IMG/VR virus record: IMGVR_UViG_3300003323_000790
Coordinates: 16,993-80,992 of that record
DNA length: 64,000 nt
DNA from: a virus
Strand: one strand, 5' to 3'
Below the pieces are notes generated by a model. That model made no database searches and was not told where the DNA came from. It worked only from the letters and a program-made list of their open reading frames with translations. The position numbers and the translations under genes were made by a program. Below are positions 29,928 to 48,478 of the stretch, piece by piece. Position 1 is the first letter of the stretch. Each line of letters begins with the position of its first letter.

Positions 29928-29951
29928 CAGCCTGCCCTCAGCGGCAGGCTG
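29928..29951. terminator. hairpin at the convergence of replication and lysis operons
   Basis: CAGCCTGCC-N6-GGCAGGCTG. Confidence 0.55.
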
Positions 29952-30492
29952 CTTCTATTGTGCGGTAGTGGGCAAGGAGGTCGTTGAAAGCTTGCACGTC
30001 TCCTGCACTGTCTCCGGCGATGCGGAGAATAGCTGCAGCAACCTCTGGCATGATGTCGGCTGTTTTGGCTGGCTCAGCGTGATGGGCAGTTGCGGCAGTG
30101 TCACCTTCGGCTGATCCAGCAACCTCACTGGCTGGATATCGGACTTCGACGCGCAGGCGCTCAACGCCAGACAGCACAGCAGCAGTGTGTTTTTCCAAGG
30201 TAAGCTCATGATCTTTCTCCCATTTCGCGGACTGCGCCGCCAGTTTCGCATCCTCTTCGGCCAGGGCCTTCTGCCTGGCCAATGCCGCCTCCAGCTTCTT
30301 CGTGTAGGCCGCCTCGGCCGCCGCGCTGATGGCCTTTTCCTTCGCCGCCCACTCCGCCGTCACCTCGGTGCGCACGCGTGCTTCGATCTTCCCCTCCCAC
30401 CAGAAATACCCACCGACCAGCGCGGCCAGTGCGAGCAAGCTCAGCAGCGGTCGGCGCCAACGTACAAACAGTTCCAGAGCAGCGAGCATCAC
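29938..30492 (-). CDS. Rz-like inner-membrane spanin
   Basis: N-terminal TM, coiled coil, follows endolysin. Confidence 0.85.
   Translation of the reverse strand: MMLAALELFVRWRRPLLSLLALAALVGGYFWWEGKIEARVRTEVTAEWAAKEKAISAAAEAAYTKKLEAALARQKALAEEDAKLAAQSAKWEKDHELTLEKHTAAVLSGVERLRVEVRYPASEVAGSAEGDTAATAHHAEPAKTADIMPEVAAAILRIAGDSAGDVQAFNDLLAHYRTIEAACR
29955..30209 (-). CDS. Rz1-like outer-membrane lipoprotein spanin embedded in Rz
   Basis: Lipobox LALSAC, Pro-rich mature part, alternate frame within Rz. Confidence 0.75.
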   Translation of the reverse strand: MSLPWKNTLLLCCLALSACASKSDIQPVRLLDQPKVTLPQLPITLSQPKQPTSCQRLLQLFSASPETVQETCKLSTTSLPTTAQ

Positions 30493-31094
30493 AGCACCTG
30501 TAAGGCAAGGTTGCGGATAGCGAGGCGCTTGGCGTAGCCAAGGCTGTCACCTACCTTTTCAGTCTTCCTGCCGAGGTTGACCAGATCGCACTGCTTGTCG
30601 AAGTCGGCCACGGCCGCGCTGATGTTGCGCGCCTTCCAGAAGTCACCGGCGCTCCAGATCGCTCCGCCTGGCGTACGGATCCAGTCCGCAAACTGCTCGA
30701 CCGGCATGCCGCGTCGGCGCGCGCCAGCTTCATAGTTCGCCTTGAACGTCAGCTGGATACCGCCGCCGCCGCGATACTTATAGCCCTCGGCCGGGCCATT
30801 ACCGTACCGGCCGCCGTAAATGGTATTGCCGATGGCGACCGGATTGCCGGCCAGCGCAGCGGCACTAGCCGGCGTGAAGCGCGTCGGGAATACCTCCAGC
30901 AGCCGCTGCGCAGAGTAGTTCAGGTTCTCGCTCAGCTGGGTCAACTCCGCTGTCTCGGCGCCGACGTTGCCCAAGAAGGCTGCCTGATCCGCCTTGCTCG
31001 TGATGCCGAACTCGGCAAAGCAGGCGTTGAGCAGGGGTGTAAAAATAGCCGCGTCGCAACGCGGCATGATCTTTTTGAGCTGCTCCGGGGTCAT
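30489..31094 (-). CDS. endolysin, GH19 chitinase-like
   Basis: AAFLG...E...L.ENLNYS...G.KYRG.G.IQLT...NY. Confidence 0.88.
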   Translation of the reverse strand: MTPEQLKKIMPRCDAAIFTPLLNACFAEFGITSKADQAAFLGNVGAETAELTQLSENLNYSAQRLLEVFPTRFTPASAAALAGNPVAIGNTIYGGRYGNGPAEGYKYRGGGGIQLTFKANYEAGARRRGMPVEQFADWIRTPGGAIWSAGDFWKARNISAAVADFDKQCDLVNLGRKTEKVGDSLGYAKRLAIRNLALQVL

Positions 31095-31324
31095 TTTGCT
31101 TCCTCGTCAGGTTTCTCTGGCAGGACGTTCGGCTGCGCGATGACGCGGCCCAAGATGCCGGCAACAAAAGTTGCCAAGGCGGCATACTGCACCCATTCTG
31201 GGGGGATCGCTGATTTGAACTCTTGCGGCAGCGCCAAGTAGCCGGCGGTTACCGAAGCGCCGACGGCGCTTAGCTGAACGGACAGCAACTTCCACGAGAG
31301 GTGCCAGTTATCAATTAGTTTCAT
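31091..31324 (-). CDS. holin
   Basis: 77 aa, two TM segments, MKLIDNW..SW...SVQ...R.IAQP; immediately upstream of endolysin. Confidence 0.75.
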   Translation of the reverse strand: MKLIDNWHLSWKLLSVQLSAVGASVTAGYLALPQEFKSAIPPEWVQYAALATFVAGILGRVIAQPNVLPEKPDEEAK

Positions 31325-31692
31325 GATTGGGTCCGGTCCCGCACGATGGCGATAAGTTGCTGCATATTCTGCGACAAGTTGGCATTGGCGGCGAGCATTT
31401 CTTTTCTCAGCTCGGAAACACTTACCTGAACTTGGCTGATCTGTCCCTGCAGGGCGTCGATCTCGCGATCCTGTCGACGATGGATCTCAGCCAGCTGCTC
31501 GCGGAATTGGGCGCGCAGCTCACGGATCTCTTCTCGATGCAGCTCCTTGACCTCAGCCAGAGCTTCTGTAGAGGCCTTTTTCTCCAAGGCCAGCTCATAC
31601 CTCTTGGACTCCTGGCGCAGCAGGCCCCAGATCACTAACAGGAGAGCCCCGGCCACAGAGAGTGCATAGACCAGCATTTGACTTTCAGACAT
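31321..31692 (-). CDS. single-TM coiled-coil membrane protein (lysis cassette)
   Basis: One N-terminal TM plus coiled coil. Confidence 0.7.
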   Translation of the reverse strand: MSESQMLVYALSVAGALLLVIWGLLRQESKRYELALEKKASTEALAEVKELHREEIRELRAQFREQLAEIHRRQDREIDALQGQISQVQVSVSELRKEMLAANANLSQNMQQLIAIVRDRTQS

Positions 31693-32119
31693 GACCGGCC
31701 TCTTTCATAAAGCGGCGCATGGTACGCCTTTGTTGTATTTTCGTGACACTATCGGACAGCACGATGCAGACTAACAACTGAGCTGTCTCGAACATAGGCT
31801 GGGTGATTTTGTAGACGCCGAGACCTTCGGAAGGGCCAAAGATGGCACCGAAAATATGCCCGGCAGACAGGAATGCGGACAGCACAGCTACCCAGCAGCT
31901 GGCGCGCACTTGGAGGGCAATTGCCAGAACCATGAGCACTAGCTCGATTACCAGCCACTCTACATACCAAATCCAAGTGGGCCAGACCCATGGGAGTTCG
32001 GTCAGCAGAACGGCAGCGACGCTGCCGGACAAGAGCATACCGCGCCCGCAGGCGCGATTGAGCCACAGGGCTGCGCAGAGCAGCACCACATAGGCAATGT
32101 GCAGCCCTGTGTAAAACAT
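31685..32119 (-). CDS. multi-pass membrane protein
   Basis: About 4-5 hydrophobic segments, basic C-terminal tail. Confidence 0.75.
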   Translation of the reverse strand: MFYTGLHIAYVVLLCAALWLNRACGRGMLLSGSVAAVLLTELPWVWPTWIWYVEWLVIELVLMVLAIALQVRASCWVAVLSAFLSAGHIFGAIFGPSEGLGVYKITQPMFETAQLLVCIVLSDSVTKIQQRRTMRRFMKEAGHV

Positions 32120-32122
32120 GGC

Positions 32123-32197
32123 TTACTGCGACGGCGGTTTTGGTGGGGTTGGTGGCGGCTCGTTACCGTTACCGCCCAGGCAGATAAATGGGTTCAT
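32123..32197 (-). CDS. 24-aa proline-rich peptide MNPFICLGGNGNEPPPTPPKPPSQ
   Basis: GGAGAG SD; stop codon 3 nt before the next ATG; local promoter upstream. Confidence 0.65.
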   Translation of the reverse strand: MNPFICLGGNGNEPPPTPPKPPSQ

Positions 32198-32198
32198 T

Positions 32199-32259
32199 TT
32201 GCTCTCCAGAAATTGACTATCTGGAGAGCAATTCTACTAGGAAACGAACTCAGCAGCAA
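32199..32259 (-). promoter_or_regulatory. RBS-sequestering 12-bp hairpin plus overlapping promoter
   Basis: TTGCTCTCCAGA-N9-TCTGGAGAGCAA contains the SD; TTGCTG-17-TAGAAT at 32259-32231. Confidence 0.7.
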
Positions 32260-32262
32260 ATT

Positions 32263-34452
32263 TTATGCCAGGTGCAGGCACTGAATCGTCAGGGTTGCGG
32301 ATGGGTTAGGGCCGGCGGCGGCCCAAACCGTATCTTGGTAGTTCGCACTGACATTCAACGCGCGGCTGTTGGCTGCCGTGTTGATCAGTCGTACAGGGAT
32401 CGACGTCGGCTCGGCCCAGCCATAGTTGCTGTACTGCAAGGAGGGCTTGGCGCCGTCAAGTACGGTCAATGCCCGTGCTGTGCTGCGCAACAGATTACGC
32501 GGCTTCGTGGCCTTGATGTCCGAGTTGTCCAGCGGCGTAGCCGTCTGAGCGTATGTAGCTGCTCCTGGCATCCTCCAGTCATCCGGGTAGGTGCCAAATC
32601 CATAAGACGGAGCAACCATGGTCACTTCCGTTGCCGTAGCAAGTTGCCAGCGTCCATCGTTGACATATACGGCAGTTGCAGCCGCATCGGTGTAGACCAG
32701 GGCGCTGGCGTTACCTGTCGGGATGCCGCTGAGGAAGCCGACCGACCAGAATTCGGTGACCGGCCGCGAGGATACCGTGCCCGTTACGGCGATGTAGAAG
32801 GGTGAGCCGGCGAGGTCGGCATTGCCGCCCCCGTAAGCTGCCGTAAGCGAAGTGACCGTACCTTGGAACACCACCGAAGTAGAGAATGCCGCGGCGGGTG
32901 CGGCACTTACTGTCAGGGCGGCCACACGCACCGTCGTATTGACGAGCATCACTGCCCACAGCGCATTACTGCTGTCGTAGCGCACTGCCAGATAGGTAAC
33001 AGCCGTGGTCGTTGCGGTCGCTACGGTTCCCAGCGTCAGCGCGCCGCCCGCTCCAACGGTATAAGGGCGAGCGGCGATCTGCGTTGCACTGGCCGCCAGC
33101 AATAGAGTAACCACATTGTCGCTGGTGCGTGGGAGCTGCGTAACGACAGACGAAACGATAGTGTTGGTCACTGCCGTCCCGGCGACAAGGGTGGCGCCGG
33201 AGATTTCCAGCCCATACGAAACGCAGCTGGTAGCCGAGGTCAGGCCGGTAATCATAAAACGCCCCGATCCCAGGCCGGCCGGAACCATGTCCTGGATCTT
33301 CGTCCAAGCGGTGCCGAGCGTAATGGAGAGCGGAGTGCCTAGTGTGATGGTACTCGCCGCGATGGTCAGGCGCACCACTTGCAGCGCCGTGCCATTGACC
33401 GAGGCCACGATCACATCGTTCGATCCGTCATTCACCATGCAGGCGTAGACGCTGCCGTCGTCGCCGGCGGCGACTAGACCAGTGCGAATTTGTGCCGGCG
33501 ACTGCAATGTCGCCGGGAAATTAGCCGGGTCGTACAGTACTGCATGCAGGCTGGCTCCGTGCACAAGCACCAGTTGCGTGGAACCGGTCAGCAGCAGTGA
33601 TTTGGTGTACAGGCCGCCGGTCCCGGCCACAGCCGAAGAGAATGTGACCTTATCCATCATGACCGTACCGTACGGGCGCGTTTCCCCTGAAATGTCCCAC
33701 TCTGCCGTGCCGCCATTCAACTCGGCTTGGCGGTCCGGAGGCAGATAGCAATCGGTGCCGGAGAATGCGTTGATGGCCACGTCATAGCCATAGCCATACC
33801 CGCCAGGACCTGCTTGGTTACGCAGTGAAAAGACATTCGGCCCCTGTTGCTGAGTAGCTGCCGCGGTAACGGAGAAGGCCGCGCCGGCGCCTGCCGGCTT
33901 ATTGACCTGATATCTATTGCTTGTGGTGCCCACCAGCATCACTGCGCTGGACGAGGTGACTTGGCCTGTGTCGGGTACGCCGGGCGCCGAGGCACTGATG
34001 GTCCAAGTGCTCGACGCGCCGGTGCCGCGTGCGCGAGTAACCGCCACGGTCGTGGAGCCGGTGCCAGAGTTGTAAGCCGTGATGGGGCCGTTCATCCAGC
34101 GCGTCGAGGGCGTAGTGGTGTCCGCGACGGTAACCCACATGCCAACCACCCAAGTCTTGCCGGTCTGGGAAGTGAATGTTTTGCTGGCCACCGATGGCGT
34201 CAGGCTAGTCGTAGACGTGCCGTTGGTATTCGGCGTGGCGATGGCCGAAGCAGCAGATGCCGCCGCATTGGCGGCAGCAGCATTTGCGGAGGCCAAAGTG
34301 GCATCCGCGTATGCCCGGTCTGCATTGGTCTCGACCATGATGTCCGATAGCATCGGCAACAGGCGAACGCGAAAACCGCCGTTCCCCATGCCGGTGACTG
34401 GATCGTCATCGTCGGTATAAGTATGGCCATTGGCGATAACAGTGGTGGTCAT
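32263..34452 (-). CDS. tail fiber / receptor-binding protein
   Basis: Thr/Ala/Gly-rich beta repeats, last gene of the tail module. Confidence 0.7.
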   Translation of the reverse strand: MTTTVIANGHTYTDDDDPVTGMGNGGFRVRLLPMLSDIMVETNADRAYADATLASANAAAANAAASAASAIATPNTNGTSTTSLTPSVASKTFTSQTGKTWVVGMWVTVADTTTPSTRWMNGPITAYNSGTGSTTVAVTRARGTGASSTWTISASAPGVPDTGQVTSSSAVMLVGTTSNRYQVNKPAGAGAAFSVTAAATQQQGPNVFSLRNQAGPGGYGYGYDVAINAFSGTDCYLPPDRQAELNGGTAEWDISGETRPYGTVMMDKVTFSSAVAGTGGLYTKSLLLTGSTQLVLVHGASLHAVLYDPANFPATLQSPAQIRTGLVAAGDDGSVYACMVNDGSNDVIVASVNGTALQVVRLTIAASTITLGTPLSITLGTAWTKIQDMVPAGLGSGRFMITGLTSATSCVSYGLEISGATLVAGTAVTNTIVSSVVTQLPRTSDNVVTLLLAASATQIAARPYTVGAGGALTLGTVATATTTAVTYLAVRYDSSNALWAVMLVNTTVRVAALTVSAAPAAAFSTSVVFQGTVTSLTAAYGGGNADLAGSPFYIAVTGTVSSRPVTEFWSVGFLSGIPTGNASALVYTDAAATAVYVNDGRWQLATATEVTMVAPSYGFGTYPDDWRMPGAATYAQTATPLDNSDIKATKPRNLLRSTARALTVLDGAKPSLQYSNYGWAEPTSIPVRLINTAANSRALNVSANYQDTVWAAAGPNPSATLTIQCLHLA

Positions 34453-42800: not shown

Positions 42801-43817
42801 CGCCTGCACGAACTTGAGCTGGTACTCGACTTCTTTGCCGACGGTCACCACATTCTTGAGGGACGCGGCCAGCGCGGCGCCAGCCGCCAGCGGGATCAGG
42901 CTGCCGTAGGTCAGCCACAGGCCGCCCAAGGAGCCCGCCAAGCCGCGCGCCAGTGCGTGGCCTTCGGCCATTGCTTCGTTGTGCGCGGCGATCGCCGCCG
43001 TGCTGGAGGCGGCCGCCGGCGGCATGGCAGCCAGTTGGCGCCGCAGCTCTGCCAGGTTGGCGCCGGCGGCGGCGCTGCCGTAGCGCTCCGATGCGTTGCC
43101 GCCGAGGCTGCCATAGACGGCCGCCTTCTCGGCCGTGGCGATTTGGCTGGCCAGGCTGGAGGTGGTGAAGTTGGTGTTGAGCACGCGCTGCTTTTCAGCG
43201 GCAGCGGCCTTCTTGGCTTCCAGATCGAGCGTATTCTGCCAAGAGGCGGCAGCCGCTGCTTCTTCCAGTGCGCGCCGCTTGCGAAGCTCGGCTTCCAAGG
43301 TAGCGGTCTTCTTGGCTTCGAAGCTGAGCAAGGTTTGCCACGAGGCTGCAGCGGCGGCCTCGCTGATAGCAGCAGCGCGGTCATAGCTGGCTTGCAGCGC
43401 GGCGGCGCGCTTGTTCTCAGCCGCCATCTCGGCTTCCAGCTCCTTCATAGCCGTGGCGGTTGCTTTATTGATCCGGGCCGAGGCAGCGGCCTCCTGCGCT
43501 GCCTCGGCGGCGGCGTAGAACTTGTTGCGGTCAAACAGCATCTTGTCGAGACCCTTCTCGACAGCGGAAGCTTCTTCGGCTGCGGCGGCTTTGGCGCTGG
43601 CTACGCGCCGGCCCTGGGCGGCCGTCTGGACGGAAAGGATCTCGGTGAGAGAGGTGGAAATGGTCTTGACCATCGCCTCCATTTGCTGGGTGAGCGAGGC
43701 CAGCGCGGTCTCGCGCGCGGCAAGCTTGTCGAACGACGAGGCGACCCGATCGATGGCATCTGCCATTCGCTTTAGGTCGTCTGCGCCGCTGGCATTGATG
43801 CTGTTGTTCTCGTCCAT
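36846..43817 (-). CDS. tape measure protein (2323 aa) with C-terminal DUF4214-like domain
   Basis: TP901-type core (D.LA.TA..SN...GSQAGT); Ala-rich helices; FYRNILEREPD..GL..W...F.KS.EY near the C-terminus. Confidence 0.92.
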   Translation of the reverse strand: MDENNSINASGADDLKRMADAIDRVASSFDKLAARETALASLTQQMEAMVKTISTSLTEILSVQTAAQGRRVASAKAAAAEEASAVEKGLDKMLFDRNKFYAAAEAAQEAAASARINKATATAMKELEAEMAAENKRAAALQASYDRAAAISEAAAAASWQTLLSFEAKKTATLEAELRKRRALEEAAAAASWQNTLDLEAKKAAAAEKQRVLNTNFTTSSLASQIATAEKAAVYGSLGGNASERYGSAAAGANLAELRRQLAAMPPAAASSTAAIAAHNEAMAEGHALARGLAGSLGGLWLTYGSLIPLAAGAALAASLKNVVTVGKEVEYQLKFVQALSQEAVPLDNFLAISGGTVVGIKDAAEGMRALAQNGLSVKDSLAVLPAVLNLATIGEMGVEQAALAATGALSAFGLQIGDIERVGDILAKTAASSNTSVAAMTESLKQGSIAASLYGVSIEETSAALGTLAKINIVGSQAGTAYSNLLTSLYAPTKQATKALDELGVSAKNVDGSLKNSSVLLAELRNALSKYNESAQANYIGDITNNRGAKAVSTLLQYLDDYEKKIQEARDATGFMSDAVTTLGDSTEGAFKRLKNSMDETFIRAFSQSQPALQALVDGLAQVARSEGATRILTNLAAGTVSLAQGAVSSAKEIGVLVAAVSTVTLGMKAWTGATTLYTTALAGAEAATITFTTATRLAMGVLGPLALLIGGLTLAYQLYNAEIDKQEQANQKIQNSTRTRIDMLDSENKSLEKRIELIREKLRLEGDKGDQPAAPTTLQAAAEAMNRLNAAAAAAKKTVDNAMSPTKEMLANYANLSKQAEEAQANYYKLSAAETANKGLNAEQKTLNDRAALIKQLEDLAKKSEVIKTIGGKDVAVEDQSNEAARGKAAEALDILEKFKSNSLTYTQALAAYTETRRDYNASLQDRPKTATNDELNAQVQQLQGAKQLFDIQQRTKTLELDAARAAGRVGELEYLRQKTTLERQSLTVAYDTAMSEAALMSAADKKRGAEQKYTNQANDAIEKGKQLLIQQAAAEQAYFTQLDKENLTRQADALQARGQLVDAYLLKFEADTSQTVSGLQSNIKALESDITKALESGDTSNVDDLLEKLGKLNTALNAISQRRSAGVDTALFAQLKTQFDTLINSIQGAVQEAQAKGTEEGGLAGMLGVSDAAESIQRKLLPTTKELWAQLKAIAETSNNPELAKAFEEINKKYQQQVNTLEKATKPFGDTWKSIWKTVDQSAHDAFVSWGKSGVDTMKKIKEAIKTSILDMLYQLTIKKWIIEISTNVTGALSSITSGGSALSTLLGGSSESTGAAGGSSTMASILGGASNLFTIGKAIYGGLTSGITGSLASSISSAGSLFGSEALSAFGAGMQGGALGAGTASASSGYAGSAAASYGAGAAKAIPIVGWIIAGMEAANSFMKQGFTPNNGTITNPIFKAISAPTNLVYSSLSKLGVGSTLANILSGAAINTKLFGRADPVVTSQGVRGTISDTGIAGGESYANILEKGGWFRSDKRYTNTAALPSDFSNSLVSGFTQVKVAAAGYAAVLGLSTDVLKDYTKAFDISLGSDQTKNTDAITAFFAQVGDELSTKLLPSIASFSKVGEAASATLQRLAGDYKSTDTIAQLLGKTGVQAFGAIGIASLTAREQFINMSGGIDALSSKLTSYSQNYLTTQEQNAPVIAALNAEFAKLNVKVPTTREEFKALVSGLDLTDAAQVSTFNSLMDLQAAFAQVTPAVDKAAETANILSQQAQLYELTGDKAAAAAVLEQQHQLALKGMSAELAAATQAVWGAQKATAAREDQKSILDQQAQLYEITGNKTAAAAVLEQQHQLALQNMSVELAAATQAVWDAQKAEAAKKEALDEQKAILEQQAQLYEITGDKAAAAAVLEQQHQLALKDMSAALAEATKATWAAQASQQANQQRTQDMLSELQLQSQISEALGNSAGKAAAQIAIQTLQLQGLTPALAALNKELYVAQASKGVTDAYQDLVTKSQSAVDALTKFADSLDNLQQTLNQGDLSTLTPEQKLAKAKVTYEDTVAKAIAGDETAQGNLSSVAQDYLKASRAYNASNPTYAADATRVQNDITKLATSTRSQISVQKDILATAKAQLDALGLQTSTTASGLQAVADAVKALGQAIATLNSTKDIKTPSGDPSQASHSAIELAITSFYRNILEREPDAPGLANWIEAYNKGVSLDTIASDFYKSDEYLSKHSHAKGGMAYGVSLVGERGPELVDFTHPAQVYPAAQTAGMFARGPQASYDPVARQLLESLVREAQAANAQRAAIAEREEELAAADLDEQRRAQRVARSNNSKN
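38060..38570 (-). repeat. three tandem ~55-65-aa repeats inside the tape measure gene
   Basis: IL.QQAQLYE.TG.K.AAAAVLEQQHQLAL..MS..LA.AT.A.W.AQ x3. Confidence 0.85.
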
Positions 43818-43821
43818 AGAA

Positions 43822-43871
43822 GAAGCCCCTCAGTAGATACGGATTATCGCTGAGGGGCTTCCTATTGGCAA
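43822..43871 (-). promoter_or_regulatory. hairpin covering the tape measure RBS with a promoter -10 in its loop
   Basis: GAAGCCCCTCAG-N16-CTGAGGGGCTTC; TTGCCA-17-GATAAT. Confidence 0.65.
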
Positions 43872-43875
43872 CAAC

Positions 43876-44271
43876 TTATGCCTTCATCGTGACGCCGGCG
43901 GCCTTACGCATTTCGTCTAGGCTGCCTGATTTGGCATGCTTGGCCGCGTGGCGCTCCCGGAATACTTGATCCATGTTCTGGACGTACAGCAACAACTCTG
44001 CATACTCGTCCGGATCAAATATCCCAAGGGCCCAGCAATGCGCCTGAACTTCTGAGACAGGGACTGCCAGAGGCTGGCCTTGGTCGAATCGCCGGCTGTG
44101 GCTGAGTTCTCGGTATATCTGCGCAAAGTAGCTTTGCCGGAACGTCAGGACTGGGCGGCGGTCCAGATAGGCTGGCCTGGGAATCCCTGATTTTGCCAGG
44201 TATTCTAGGTCAGCTGCACTGTGCTTTCCGCCCCAGTCAAGTTCCCACTCGATGTGGGCACGGAGTTTTTT
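43876..44271 (-). CDS. tail assembly chaperone, -1 frameshift extension (gpT-like)
   Basis: -1 frame is open from slippery GCA AAA AAC (about 44265-44271) to TAA at 43878-43876: KLRAHIEWELDWG...RPVL...Y.ELS.SRR...P.SEV. Confidence 0.8.
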   Translation of the reverse strand, partial: KKLRAHIEWELDWGGKHSAADLEYLAKSGIPRPAYLDRRPVLTFRQSYFAQIYRELSHSRRFDQGQPLAVPVSEVQAHCWALGIFDPDEYAELLLYVQNMDQVFRERHAAKHAKSGSLDEMRKAAGVTMKA

Positions 44272-44734: not shown

Positions 44735-44763
44735 AGAATATCATTCTTTTCTGAAAGTGTCAA
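44735..44763 (-). promoter_or_regulatory. sigma70-like promoter
   Basis: TTGACA-17-TATTCT with extended TG. Confidence 0.7.
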
Positions 44764-44832
44764 AAAGAAGTGCCGACGGGACATCCACACCGCCAGCACC
44801 TAAACCCTAGAAGCTCAGCATACGACTAAAAT

Positions 44833-48420: not shown

Positions 48421-48449
48421 ATTATGGCACGCTCTTTGCTACAAAGCAA
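48421..48449 (-). promoter_or_regulatory. sigma70-like promoter, GCAA-spacer class
   Basis: TTGCTT-17-CATAAT; opposite strand reads TGGCACGCTCTTTGCT. Confidence 0.7.
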
Positions 48450-48478
48450 AAACCGGACCAATGGTCCGGTTTTTGCTT
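48444..48478. terminator. long perfect inverted repeat / bidirectional terminator
   Basis: AAGCAAAAACCGGACCA-A-TGGTCCGGTTTTTGCTT. Confidence 0.8.

What the first reader, a model, noticed from the sequence alone, without database searches (positions are those of the whole stretch)
31321..32270. Unannotated polyproline micropeptide plus membrane protein heading the lysis cassette, with hairpin-gated translation
Seen: a 24-aa ORF MNPFICLGGNGNEPPPTPPKPPSQ (32197-32123) with a good SD. Its stop is 3 nt from the ATG of a 4-5-TM protein lacking a clear SD, followed by a TM coiled-coil protein, holin, endolysin and spanins. The SD lies in the 3' arm of a perfect 12-bp hairpin. A TTGCTG-17-TAGAAT promoter would start inside the 5' arm and free the SD, whereas read-through from the tail operon would be silenced. 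Known: T4 controls lysozyme e this way, and PPP motifs stall ribosomes without EF-P. Inference: a lysis-timing module, either a peptide signal with a membrane receptor/exporter or an EF-P/proline-sensing leader coupling lysis to translation status.
Basis: partly seen in the sequence, partly recalled or inferred. Interest (0 to 1): 0.75.

Follow-up and report, generated by a model that had tools for sequence, protein, structure and literature searches.

The report
Conserved polyproline leader peptide heading phage lysis operons
A tiny proline-rich gene in front of a membrane-protein gene at the start of this phage's cell-bursting genes is real and conserved in many unrelated uncultured phages, and it probably controls how fast or when those genes are translated.

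Summary
The 24-aa ORF (32197-32123, minus strand) has a GGAG Shine-Dalgarno (SD) sequence inside the 3' arm of a perfect 12-bp hairpin (-19.7 kcal/mol). It ends 3 nt before an SD-less ~5-TM protein. Then follow a TM/coiled-coil protein, a DUF7940 holin, an endolysin and Rz/Rz1.

The main result is new. The peptide plus membrane-protein pair is a conserved module in 19 IMG/VR virus records (13 distinct peptides, about 9 lineages).
- All 8 records found through the membrane protein carry such a peptide.
- A DNA scan for the peptide motif alone returned 16 loci; in 13 of them the motif lies in a short ORF abutting a member of that membrane-protein family.
- The core [A/T]GNG[N/D]PPPK is better conserved than the membrane protein (23-58% identity), with freely varying third codon positions.
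- The pair always sits between the tail-fibre genes and a lysis cassette, with four endolysin types and two holin types.
- Most lineages have a near-consensus sigma70 promoter just upstream.

The hairpin gate occurs only in this window. Function is inferred: most likely a cis-acting polyproline leader that throttles coupled translation of a lysis-timing membrane protein. No Pfam or PHROG family, cultured phage or paper matched.

The parts
32254..32259 (-). -35-like hexamer TTGCTG (3 of 6 matches to consensus)
   Evidence: Read from the sequence. Weak on its own. Relatives carry TTGACC/T/G at the equivalent position.
32231..32236 (-). -10-like hexamer TAGAAT, 17 nt after the -35-like hexamer and 33 nt before the leader ATG
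   Evidence: The same TAGAAT hexamer lies 30 nt before the ATG in L027, L030 and L012-L016.
32199..32231 (-). Perfect 12-bp hairpin with a 9-nt loop. The 3' arm contains the leader SD. The 5' arm starts at the last T of the -10 hexamer.
   Evidence: I17; in MFE and centroid; -19.7 kcal/mol. SD unpaired probability is 0.10 in the long RNA and 0.47 with a 26-nt 5' UTR. No other copy in the window.
32202..32207 (-). Shine-Dalgarno GGAGAG of the leader ORF
   Evidence: -6.4 kcal/mol duplex with the anti-SD.
32123..32197 (-). 24-aa leader micropeptide ORF, MNPFICLGGNGNEPPPTPPKPPSQ, stop TAA
   Evidence: Homologues in 18 other virus records. Alignment A10.
32147..32173 (-). Core motif G-N-G-N-E-P-P-P-T (residues 9-17; PPP codons at 32158-32150). 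This is a divergent version of the family core [A/T]GNG[N/D]PPPK.
31685..32119 (-). 144-aa membrane protein with about 5 hydrophobic segments and no SD. Member of a novel phage family with conserved N21, Y52, H88, Y103, E111 and C118.
   Evidence: No Pfam or PHROG family.
31321..31692 (-). 123-aa protein with an N-terminal TM segment and a coiled coil. Its start overlaps the stop of the membrane-protein gene by 8 nt. Homologues sit at the same position in L020, L028 and L032.
   Evidence: (weak Rz-like hits, 3e-4).
31091..31324 (-). 77-aa holin (DUF7940 / phrog_1356); ATGA overlaps at both ends
30489..31094 (-). 201-aa endolysin (phrog_181)
   Evidence: about 70% nucleotide identity over 117 nt to Pseudomonas phage endolysin genes.
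29938..30492 (-). Rz-like i-spanin (184 aa). An embedded Rz1-like ORF lies at 29955-30251 (likely start at 30209, followed by a lipobox-like LSAC).
29928..29951 (.). Terminator-like hairpin where the converging plus-strand and minus-strand operons meet; marks the end of the lysis operon

Best explanation
The 24-aa ORF is a genuine leader micropeptide gene, and it is the only ribosome entry point for the next gene.

Shown:
- The peptide belongs to a conserved family with core [A/T]GNG[N/D]PPPK. The window's version, GGNGNEPPPT, is divergent.
- Its stop always lies -4 to +5 nt from the start of an SD-less, roughly 5-TM protein of a previously undescribed phage family.
- The pair heads the lysis operon, upstream of holin, endolysin and spanins.
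- In most lineages it directly follows a near-consensus sigma70 promoter.

Inferred:
- Ribosomes load at the leader SD and must translate the polyproline motif. PPP is an intrinsically slow step that depends on EF-P.
- The whole nascent chain, 13-27 residues long, is still inside the exit tunnel at that point.
- Ribosomes then terminate and re-initiate at the membrane-protein start codon.
- The leader therefore acts in cis as a throttle or sensor. It sets the rate or timing of synthesis of a membrane protein that tunes holin-dependent lysis, and perhaps of the overlapping genes behind it.
- In this window only, an extra layer exists. A -19.7 kcal/mol hairpin buries the leader SD in read-through transcripts from the tail operon. 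That lowers their translation. Transcripts starting at the TAGAAT promoter-like site, if it is used, would escape the hairpin.
For: Conservation of the pair:
- Searches anchored on the membrane protein found 8 IMG/VR records, and 8 of 8 have a short Pro-rich ORF abutting its ATG.
- A scan anchored on the motif alone (GNG[ND]PPPK as degenerate DNA) returned 16 loci. In 13 the motif lies in a 27-47-aa ORF that ends -4 to +5 nt from a 122-133-aa protein. Those proteins match the family HMM at 1e-38 to 2e-54. Ten of the 13 were not in the HMM.

Selection acts on the peptide:
- Third positions of the Gly, Asn, Pro and Lys codons vary freely across lineages.
- Among L012-L016 there are 4 variable codons, all synonymous.
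- L009 and L010 differ by 5 synonymous and 4 non-synonymous codons plus one in-frame codon indel, all after the motif.
- The motif occurs twice in three lineages.

Coupling:
- The peptide SD duplex is -3.2 to -7.4 kcal/mol in 12 of 12 loci.
- The membrane-protein gene scores +0.7 to -4.5 in the same 12.

Lysis context:
- Holins are DUF7940 or LydA-type.
- Endolysins are phrog_181, phrog_3108, Phage_lysozyme or GH108.
- Rz/Rz1 follow.

Promoter:
- 7 of 12 loci have a match of at least 10/12, against 2.1% of control windows.
- In the two whole records G010 and G007 it is one of only 3 such sites on both strands.

Precedents:
- Polyproline stalls relieved by EF-P (abstract starts of PMC11611912 and PMC6544042).
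- Polyproline stalls uncouple transcription from translation, and the proline-rich leader mgtL is discussed in the same paper (passages of PMC5021804).
- mgtP and mgtL leaders are under EF-P control (abstract starts of PMC3641672, PMC6460261 and PMC5299641).
Against: - No stalling, translation or expression data exist. No sequencing run could be listed.
- The distance from the last PPP to the membrane-protein start varies from 10 to 88 nt. A stalled ribosome therefore cannot act at a fixed distance on that start.
- No conserved alternative RNA structure was found.
- With normal EF-P, PPP pauses are short, so the throttle could be weak.
- The invariant A/T-G-N-G-N/D stretch before PPP is more than an EF-P pause needs. 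It would fit a binding motif of a mature peptide equally well.
- The function of the membrane protein is unknown. It has no family and no informative fold match (TM-score at most 0.51).
Confidence: 0.5

Rival explanations
1. The micropeptide is a functional mature product, not only a leader. It would be a short cytoplasmic linear motif ([A/T]GNG[N/D]PPPK). It would bind the cytoplasmic face of the adjacent membrane protein or a conserved host protein. That could make it a small regulatory subunit, such as an antiholin-like partner or an inhibitor.
For: - The 9-residue core is more conserved than the membrane protein itself.
- The motif is duplicated in three lineages, which would give bivalency.
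- The membrane protein has a conserved charged loop, N-R-x-D-x-R-M-L, after its first hydrophobic segment, a possible docking site.
- Adjacent, translationally coupled genes are consistent with products that act together (my inference, not a tool result).
Against: - No fused peptide plus membrane-protein form appeared among the 20 representatives plus 29 cluster proteins. The one longer protein, P0049, does not carry the motif in frame.
- The flanks of the motif are short, variable in length and charge, and evolve fast. That is typical of leader peptides.
Confidence: 0.28
2. T4 gene e-type gate, the reader's model, applying to this window only. Read-through transcripts from the tail operon are translationally silent because the hairpin buries the leader SD. 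Transcripts from the TTGCTG-17-TAGAAT promoter start inside the 5' arm and are translated.
For: - The geometry is exact. The 5' arm begins at the last base of the -10 hexamer, so a start about 7 nt downstream removes most of that arm.
- SD accessibility is 0.10 in the long RNA and 0.47 with a 26-nt UTR.
- A promoter at the homologous place is well supported in relatives.
- The T4 e precedent is documented (PMC3014915 passage).
Against: - The window's -35 matches only 3 of 6, and the site is not above chance on its own.
- The hairpin is absent from the 6 relatives folded.
- Silencing late read-through while relying on a weak promoter gives no obvious benefit at the end of a late operon.
- A simpler role fits equally well: the hairpin may just lower translation of lysis genes relative to structural genes, or protect an RNA end.
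Confidence: 0.3
3. Transcription attenuation. The C/A-rich, G-poor leader RNA would act as a Rho loading site. When the ribosome pauses at PPP or fails to translate the leader, transcription and translation uncouple. Rho then terminates before the holin gene.
For: - The leader regions have 23-40% C against 18-26% G, and only 8-17% T.
- PMC5021804 (passages) shows that polyproline stalls allow Rho-dependent termination in an efp mutant. It also notes that PPX-coding sequence is C-rich like rut sites.
Against: - The C excess is modest, and Pro, Asn and Lys codons explain it. In L020, G exceeds C.
- The conservation is at the amino-acid level, not the nucleotide level.
- No terminator-like element lies between the leader and the membrane-protein gene.
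Confidence: 0.1
4. The ORF is a chance open frame in an intergenic spacer, or it encodes a secreted arbitrium-like signal peptide.
For: - The ORF has only 24 codons in a 143-nt gap of a 60% G+C genome.
- Gene callers did not report it.
Against: - Position, SD, junction and amino-acid motif are conserved in 19 records.
- No N-terminal signal sequence or lipobox is present in any of the 13 peptides.
- No receptor-type gene is present. The neighbouring genes are membrane proteins, holin and endolysin.
Confidence: 0.03

Closest known systems
Proline-codon leader ORFs mgtP and mgtL of the Salmonella mgtCBR and mgtA operons
   Same: Both are short ORFs in the 5' leader of a membrane-protein operon. 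Both carry consecutive Pro codons whose translation speed, dependent on EF-P or proline, controls downstream expression. Sources: abstract starts of PMC3641672, PMC6460261 and PMC5299641; a passage of PMC5021804.
   Different: - mgtP and mgtL act through alternative stem-loops, and for mgtL through Rho, well upstream of the regulated gene. Here no conserved alternative structure was found.
- Here the leader stop abuts the SD-less start of the next gene, which indicates direct termination and re-initiation.
- Here a 9-residue amino-acid motif is conserved, not just the Pro codons.
- The context is a phage lysis operon.
Regulatory ribosome-arrest peptides (SecM, MifM, VemP, TnaC, Erm leaders). 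Names and properties are recalled, not taken from a call.
   Same: Both are short upstream ORFs with a conserved amino-acid motif ending in Pro residues at the presumed stall point. Both regulate an adjacent gene, often for a membrane or secretion protein. Here the nascent chain would still be inside the exit tunnel at the stall, as I recall is the case for the short leaders TnaC and Erm.
   Different: Arrest has not been demonstrated here. No RNA structure occluding the downstream start and opened by the stalled ribosome was found. The GNGNPPPK motif matches no arrest motif known to me.
T4 gene e (lysozyme) translational gate
   Same: In the window, the SD lies in a hairpin whose 5' strand overlaps a promoter-like site, so only the shorter transcripts would be translated (PMC3014915 passage).
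   Different: The gated gene here is a leader ORF, not the endolysin. The promoter-like site is a weak sigma70-like site, not a T4 late promoter. The hairpin is not conserved in relatives.
Lambda pR'-tR' late leader in front of S-R-Rz (recalled, not from a call)
   Same: A strong constitutive sigma70 promoter sits directly in front of the lysis genes, with a short leader as the control point.
   Different: Lambda controls this point by Q antitermination of a non-coding 6S leader. Here the leader is a translated polyproline ORF, and no terminator was found.
Accessory lysis membrane proteins, such as antiholins or P2 LysA-type multi-TM lysis-timing proteins (recalled, not from a call)
   Same: A small multi-pass membrane protein is encoded inside the lysis cassette next to a recognisable holin. 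It is dispensable in related cassettes: DUF7940 holins occur without it.
   Different: There is no sequence or family relationship. No known antiholin is preceded by a coupled polyproline leader.

Membership tests
Polyproline / EF-P-dependent leader ORF (mgtP or mgtL type) | Short translated ORF in the 5' leader of the regulated gene | tested here: met
   24-47-aa ORFs with an SD in 12 of 12 loci. Synonymous-only variation among L012-L016.
Polyproline / EF-P-dependent leader ORF (mgtP or mgtL type) | Conserved consecutive proline codons | tested here: met
   PPP is present in all 13 distinct peptides, with varied Pro codons.
Polyproline / EF-P-dependent leader ORF (mgtP or mgtL type) | Alternative RNA structures selected by ribosome position | tested here: not met
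   No conserved structure in 7 loci folded. The distance from PPP to the next start varies from 10 to 88 nt for the last PPP.
Polyproline / EF-P-dependent leader ORF (mgtP or mgtL type) | Downstream expression depends on EF-P or proline supply | not testable with these tools
   Needs an efp mutant host and reporter fusions.
Ribosome arrest peptide | Amino-acid motif, not RNA, conserved next to the stall site | tested here: met
   Core [A/T]GNG[N/D]PPPK with free third codon positions.
Ribosome arrest peptide | Demonstrated elongation or termination arrest | not testable with these tools
   Needs toeprinting or ribosome profiling. No sequencing run was listed.
T4 gene e-type hairpin and promoter gate | SD or start codon sequestered in a stable helix in long transcripts | tested here: met
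   Met in the window only. 12-bp stem of -19.7 kcal/mol; SD unpaired probability 0.10.
T4 gene e-type hairpin and promoter gate | Promoter placed so that its transcripts lack the 5' strand of the helix | tested here: inconclusive
   The geometry fits. The site matches only 8 of 12 positions and is not above chance on its own. The transcript start is unknown.
T4 gene e-type hairpin and promoter gate | Arrangement conserved in related phages | tested here: not met
   In 6 relatives the SD is 0.52-0.68 unpaired in the long RNA and 0.41-0.68 with shortened 5' ends.
Holin (for the 144-aa membrane protein) | Small membrane protein encoded in the lysis cassette, with a charged C-terminal tail | tested here: met
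   About 5 hydrophobic segments and a basic C-terminus. Always upstream of an endolysin.
Holin (for the 144-aa membrane protein) | Membership of a described holin family, or being the only holin candidate | tested here: not met
   No Pfam or PHROG hit. A recognisable holin (DUF7940 or LydA-type) is also present in most loci. In L032 no annotated holin lies between it and the lysozyme gene.
Secreted phage communication peptide (arbitrium type) | Precursor with an N-terminal signal sequence | tested here: not met
   The N-terminal parts before the motif are 7-18 residues long and show no signal-peptide-like hydrophobic core.
o-spanin (Rz1-type proline-rich lipoprotein) | Lipoprotein signal with a lipobox cysteine | tested here: not met
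   No lipobox in any of the peptides. Separate Rz/Rz1 pairs are present.

The most novel reading that the evidence does not exclude
[A/T]GNG[N/D]PPPK defines a new class of phage-encoded ribosome-pausing or arrest leader peptide. By making passage through one polyproline site the rate-limiting, initiation-independent step, it would work as a translational metronome or host-translation sensor (EF-P status, proline supply). That would set the holin clock of self-contained, constitutively transcribed lysis operons in virulent phages.
Probability: 0.3. Interest if true: 0.85.

Novelty: new variant of a known kind. Interest (0 to 1): 0.72.

Why it matters
How transcription and translation of the lysis genes are scheduled is known for only a few model phages. 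This is a compact, conserved and easily testable module: promoter, polyproline leader and coupled membrane protein. It precedes different holins and endolysins in about nine lineages of uncultured phages of apparently Gram-negative hosts, judging by their Rz/Rz1 spanins.

If the leader pauses ribosomes, two things follow. It would add a phage example to the small set of natural polyproline or arrest-peptide regulators. It would also link lysis timing to the translational state of the host. In addition, the module defines a new membrane-protein family tied to lysis, and it shows that a gene of 24-47 codons, missed by annotation, can be the best-conserved element of a cassette.

Tried and rejected
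Searches that found nothing:
- No close phage by DNA: only a 117-nt endolysin match in 14 Pseudomonas phage records.
- tblastn of three family members (P0003 and the L027 and L028 proteins) against 50,697 cultured-phage records: no match.
- Scans with the window-branch membrane protein: viral, metagenome and genome contigs. No relative was found, so the hairpin and promoter could not be checked in close kin.
- The TM/coiled-coil protein found no viral relative.
- The holin gave 3 loci and a tail protein gave 3 loci. The records of five of these six (L004 was not searched) lack the membrane-protein family.
- A viral scan with the alignment of another family branch (A9): nothing.
- Sequencing runs: none was listed and no RNA holder was listed.
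- Rfam: only two sub-threshold chance hits.
- Pfam on 21 family members: nothing.
- ESM Atlas: look-alike clusters are unnamed viral proteins, and structural hits are generic helical bundles with TM-score at most 0.51.
- Papers: no paper holds the strings GNGNPPP, NGNPPPK or GNGDPPP. Searches for polyproline/EF-P/phage/lysis and for arrest peptide/holin/uORF listed nothing on such a module. Supplementary files were not consulted.

Readings considered and rejected:
- Stop-codon read-through fusion. The two ORFs are in frame in the window, but the stop-to-start offsets in relatives are -4, -1, 0, +1, +2 and +5, so the frame is not conserved.
- Repeated operator. The half-site does not recur above chance: 6 matches at up to 2 mismatches against 5.4 expected.
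- Intrinsic terminator. There is no U tract, and the scanner did not list the hairpin.
- Moron expressed on its own. The genes overlap in an unbroken chain down to the endolysin.
- Temperate phages. 0 of 5 type II records have a tyrosine integrase, with positive controls in 14 of 14 genomes.
- Phage RNA polymerase. The search found none, but it had no positive control, so it is uninformative.

Full report
**Setting.** The window is part of an 80,992-bp IMG/VR virus record that CheckV rates 100% complete. It has 59.7% G+C. A long minus-strand late operon runs from about 57.5 kb down to 29.9 kb. It carries the terminase, head genes, a 2,323-aa tape-measure protein, tail genes and a 729-aa fibre-like protein at 34452-32263. 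It meets the plus-strand replication genes at a terminator-like hairpin, 29928-29951. The finding lies at the very end of that operon.

**Observation check.** All the features exist where stated.
- After the fibre gene's TAA (32265-32263) there is a 143-nt gap.
- The gap holds TTGCTG (32259-32254), a 17-nt spacer and TAGAAT (32236-32231).
- It also holds a perfect 12-bp inverted repeat with a 9-nt loop, arms 32231-32220 and 32210-32199, of -19.7 kcal/mol.
- GGAG lies at 32207-32204, inside the 3' arm.
- The ORF is ATG 32197 to TAA 32125-32123, encoding MNPFICLGGNGNEPPPTPPKPPSQ.
- Three bases later comes the ATG (32119) of a 144-aa membrane protein with about five hydrophobic segments.
- The hairpin is in both the MFE and the centroid fold. 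The 191-nt region has z = -3.2.
- The downstream genes overlap one another in a chain. They are:
  - a 123-aa N-terminal-TM plus coiled-coil protein;
  - a 77-aa DUF7940 / phrog_1356 holin;
  - a phrog_181 endolysin;
  - an Rz-like spanin with an embedded Rz1-like ORF.
- The promoter-like site matches the consensus at only 3/6 + 5/6. The scanner did not report it. In related loci, 16% of random 100-nt windows score as well.

**Is the small ORF real?** The membrane protein has no Pfam or PHROG family. It does have relatives:
- one homologue at 57% identity;
- 20 remote representatives among 1.84 billion proteins;
- 29 clusters found with a profile search. All are 107-166 aa, and none is named.

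Scans of IMG/VR with family alignments gave 8 records in four lineages. In 8 of 8, a short ORF ends 0-1 nt before the membrane protein's ATG and carries a related motif:
- MLRIKLSINQTGNGDPPPKK... (L009);
- MRKQLFAGNGNPPPKD...AGNGNPPPKDQN (L011);
- MCADPKPVPTPDPVPTPQTGGGTEPPPKPPK (L012-L016).

I then reversed the test. I scanned IMG/VR for the peptide motif alone, GNG[ND]PPPK written as degenerate DNA.
- Of 16 loci, 13 have the motif inside a 27-47-aa ORF.
- That ORF stops -4 to +5 nt from the start of a 122-133-aa protein.
- These proteins match the family HMM at 1e-38 to 2e-54. Ten of the 13 were not in the HMM.
- The other three loci look like background. L022 has no in-frame ATG, L024 is a giant-virus MAG, and L026 lies in a long Arg-rich frame.

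In total the module is present in 19 virus records, with 13 distinct peptides in about nine lineages.

**Level of selection.**
- The core [A/T]GNG[N/D]PPPK is nearly invariant, whereas the membrane proteins share only 23-58% identity between lineages.
- Across lineages the Gly, Asn, Pro, Lys, Ala and Thr codons of the core use different third bases.
- Among the five L012-L016 records, the ORF has four variable codons, all synonymous.
- L009 and L010 differ by five synonymous and four non-synonymous codons plus one in-frame codon indel. All of these lie after the motif.
- Three lineages carry the motif twice.
- The window's version, GGNGNEPPPT, has an inserted Glu and Thr in place of Lys, so it is a divergent member. 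L012-L016 share the inserted Glu.

**Translational coupling.** The peptide ORF has an SD in 12 of 12 representative loci, with duplex energies of -3.2 to -7.4 kcal/mol. The membrane-protein gene scores only +0.7 to -4.5, and +0.7 in the window. Twelve of the 14 other late genes of the window examined score between -4.9 and -9.3. The stop-start junctions are TAAgccATG, TAAcATG, TAAATG, TAATG and GTGA. The membrane protein is therefore most likely made by ribosomes that have just finished the leader.

**Context.** The module always lies between tail-fibre genes and a lysis cassette. Two layouts exist.
- Type I (window, L020, L028/L032):
  - gene order: leader, membrane protein, a homologous TM/coiled-coil protein, DUF7940 in the window and L020, then the endolysin;
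  - endolysin type: phrog_181 here, Phage_lysozyme in L020 and L032.
- Type II (L009, L011, L013, L021 scanned against families; L027, L029 and L031 show the same ORF layout):
  - gene order: leader, membrane protein, a phrog_20672 membrane protein, a LydA-type holin, then the endolysin, with Rz/Rz1-like ORFs after it where the locus extends that far;
  - endolysin type: phrog_3108, Phage_lysozyme or GH108 plus PG_binding_3.

The module thus travels with four endolysin types and two holin types. DUF7940 holins also occur without it. It is an accessory, lysis-associated module rather than the core holin. In L032, however, no other annotated holin lies between it and the lysozyme gene.

**Promoter.**
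- Seven of 12 representative loci have a sigma70 match of at least 10/12, for example TTGACC-17-TAGAAT, TTGACT-18-CATAAT or TTGACC-18-TACAAT. It ends 26-47 nt before the leader ATG. Only 2.1% of control windows reach that score.
- In two complete records, G010 and G007 (each about 43 kb), this site is one of only three matches of at least 10/12 on both strands.
- The type II phages show no tyrosine integrase (0 of 5). The search for a phage RNA polymerase found none but lacked a positive control.
- A promoter in front of the leader is therefore a conserved trait. The window's site shares the TAGAAT hexamer and its position but has a poor -35.
- An earlier first-stage note on another genome (e1-3274451) independently described TTGACC-17-TAGAAT followed by a 36-aa Pro-rich ORF and three membrane proteins. 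I verified the same on L027, L029 and L030.

**Hairpin.**
- In the window, the SD is 0.10 unpaired in a 140-nt RNA that includes upstream sequence.
- It is 0.47 unpaired when the RNA starts 26 nt before the ATG, roughly where a TAGAAT-driven transcript would start.
- In six relatives the SD is 0.52-0.68 unpaired in the long RNA and 0.41-0.68 with shortened 5' ends.
- The half-site does not recur in the window.
- The T4 gene e analogy is correctly recalled (passage of PMC3014915) and fits the geometry. It is a lineage-specific addition, not the conserved logic.
- A plainer role, lowering translation of lysis genes from the long late mRNA, fits as well.

**Mechanism.**
- Shown: a conserved, translated, polyproline-containing leader ORF is the only SD-bearing entry point to an SD-less lysis-cassette membrane-protein gene, usually behind its own promoter.
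- Inferred: passage through PPP limits or senses the flow of ribosomes that re-initiate on the membrane-protein gene.
  - PPP is slow and EF-P-dependent (abstract starts seen).
  - Such stalls have effects on transcription-translation coupling (passages of PMC5021804).
  - The third Pro of the first motif is residue 13-27, so at the pause the whole nascent chain is inside the exit tunnel. I recall the same being true of short regulatory leaders.
  - Sequence after the motif is free to vary.
- Against a fixed-geometry model: the last PPP lies 10-88 nt from the next start, and no conserved alternative fold exists.
- The strict conservation of A/T-G-N-G-N/D is not explained by an EF-P pause alone. 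It keeps open two readings: a stronger, sequence-specific arrest, and a mature peptide with a linear binding motif.

**Comparison with known systems.**
- The nearest known kinds are the proline-codon leaders mgtP and mgtL (abstract starts; passage), regulatory arrest peptides (recalled) and, for the hairpin, T4 gene e.
- The module fails the defining 'alternative RNA structure' feature of the mgt leaders. It cannot yet be tested for arrest.
- I found nothing equivalent in print or in cultured phages.
- I rate it a new variant of a known kind: a translated regulatory leader, here in phage lysis operons, with a new peptide motif and a new partner protein family.

**Verdict.** The lasting result is the conserved leader plus membrane-protein module, not the hairpin gate. 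My confidence that the ORF is real and coupled is about 0.9. My confidence that it acts in cis through polyproline pausing is about 0.5.

Noticed in passing
window 32119-32197: In this window the leader ORF and the membrane-protein ORF are in the same frame, separated only by TAA-GCC. Relatives have other offsets, so read-through is not a conserved feature.
   Followed up: yes
window 43817-43880 and 44744-44770 (minus strand): Two better sigma70-like sites lie inside the late operon: TTGCCA-17-GATAAT just before the tape-measure gene start and TTGACA-17-TATTCT before the 179-aa gene. A perfect 12-bp inverted repeat at 43822-43861 lies next to the first. Internal promoters may subdivide the late operon.
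   Followed up: no
window 48444-48478: A perfect 17-bp inverted repeat with a 1-nt loop (AAGCAAAAACCGGACCA / TGGTCCGGTTTTTGCTT) lies between two minus-strand head-region genes. It looks like a bidirectional terminator or an RNA-end hairpin.
   Followed up: no
L012 2806-3132 and L013 3499-3825: The 108-aa protein just upstream of the leader in the L012-L016 phages ends in its own polyproline-rich tail (…PDVPPPTEFPPPGDMP.QP…). It has no family match.
   Followed up: partly
L009 4388-4842, L011 4383-4835, L013 4339-4794, L021 9909-10358: A conserved ~150-aa membrane protein (phrog_20672 at 3e-10 and 3e-9 in L011 and L013; function unknown) sits between the new membrane protein and the LydA-type holin. 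It shows conserved motifs such as RLQDQF, DWTP and CYAAQP. It is another unstudied component of the lysis cassette.
   Followed up: partly
protein P0049 (JGI, 166 aa): This is the only longer family member. It has a 35-residue Arg-rich N-terminal extension that looks like an upstream start called in the wrong frame across a leader region, not a true fusion.
   Followed up: no
L012-L014, about 30 nt before and across the leader ATG: An 8-bp stem pairs GCGTACAT in the 5' UTR with ATGTGCGC at the leader start codon. It leaves the SD in the loop. This is a different, lineage-specific structure at the same place as the window's hairpin.
   Followed up: partly
window 31321-31692; L020 1011-1319; L028 10734-11054; L032 473-796: The TM/coiled-coil proteins of type I cassettes share a C-terminal motif, NLSxxIDLVIQLL (NLSQNMQQLIAIV in the window). 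They give only weak Rz-like PHROG hits, although a separate Rz/Rz1 pair exists in the window.
   Followed up: partly
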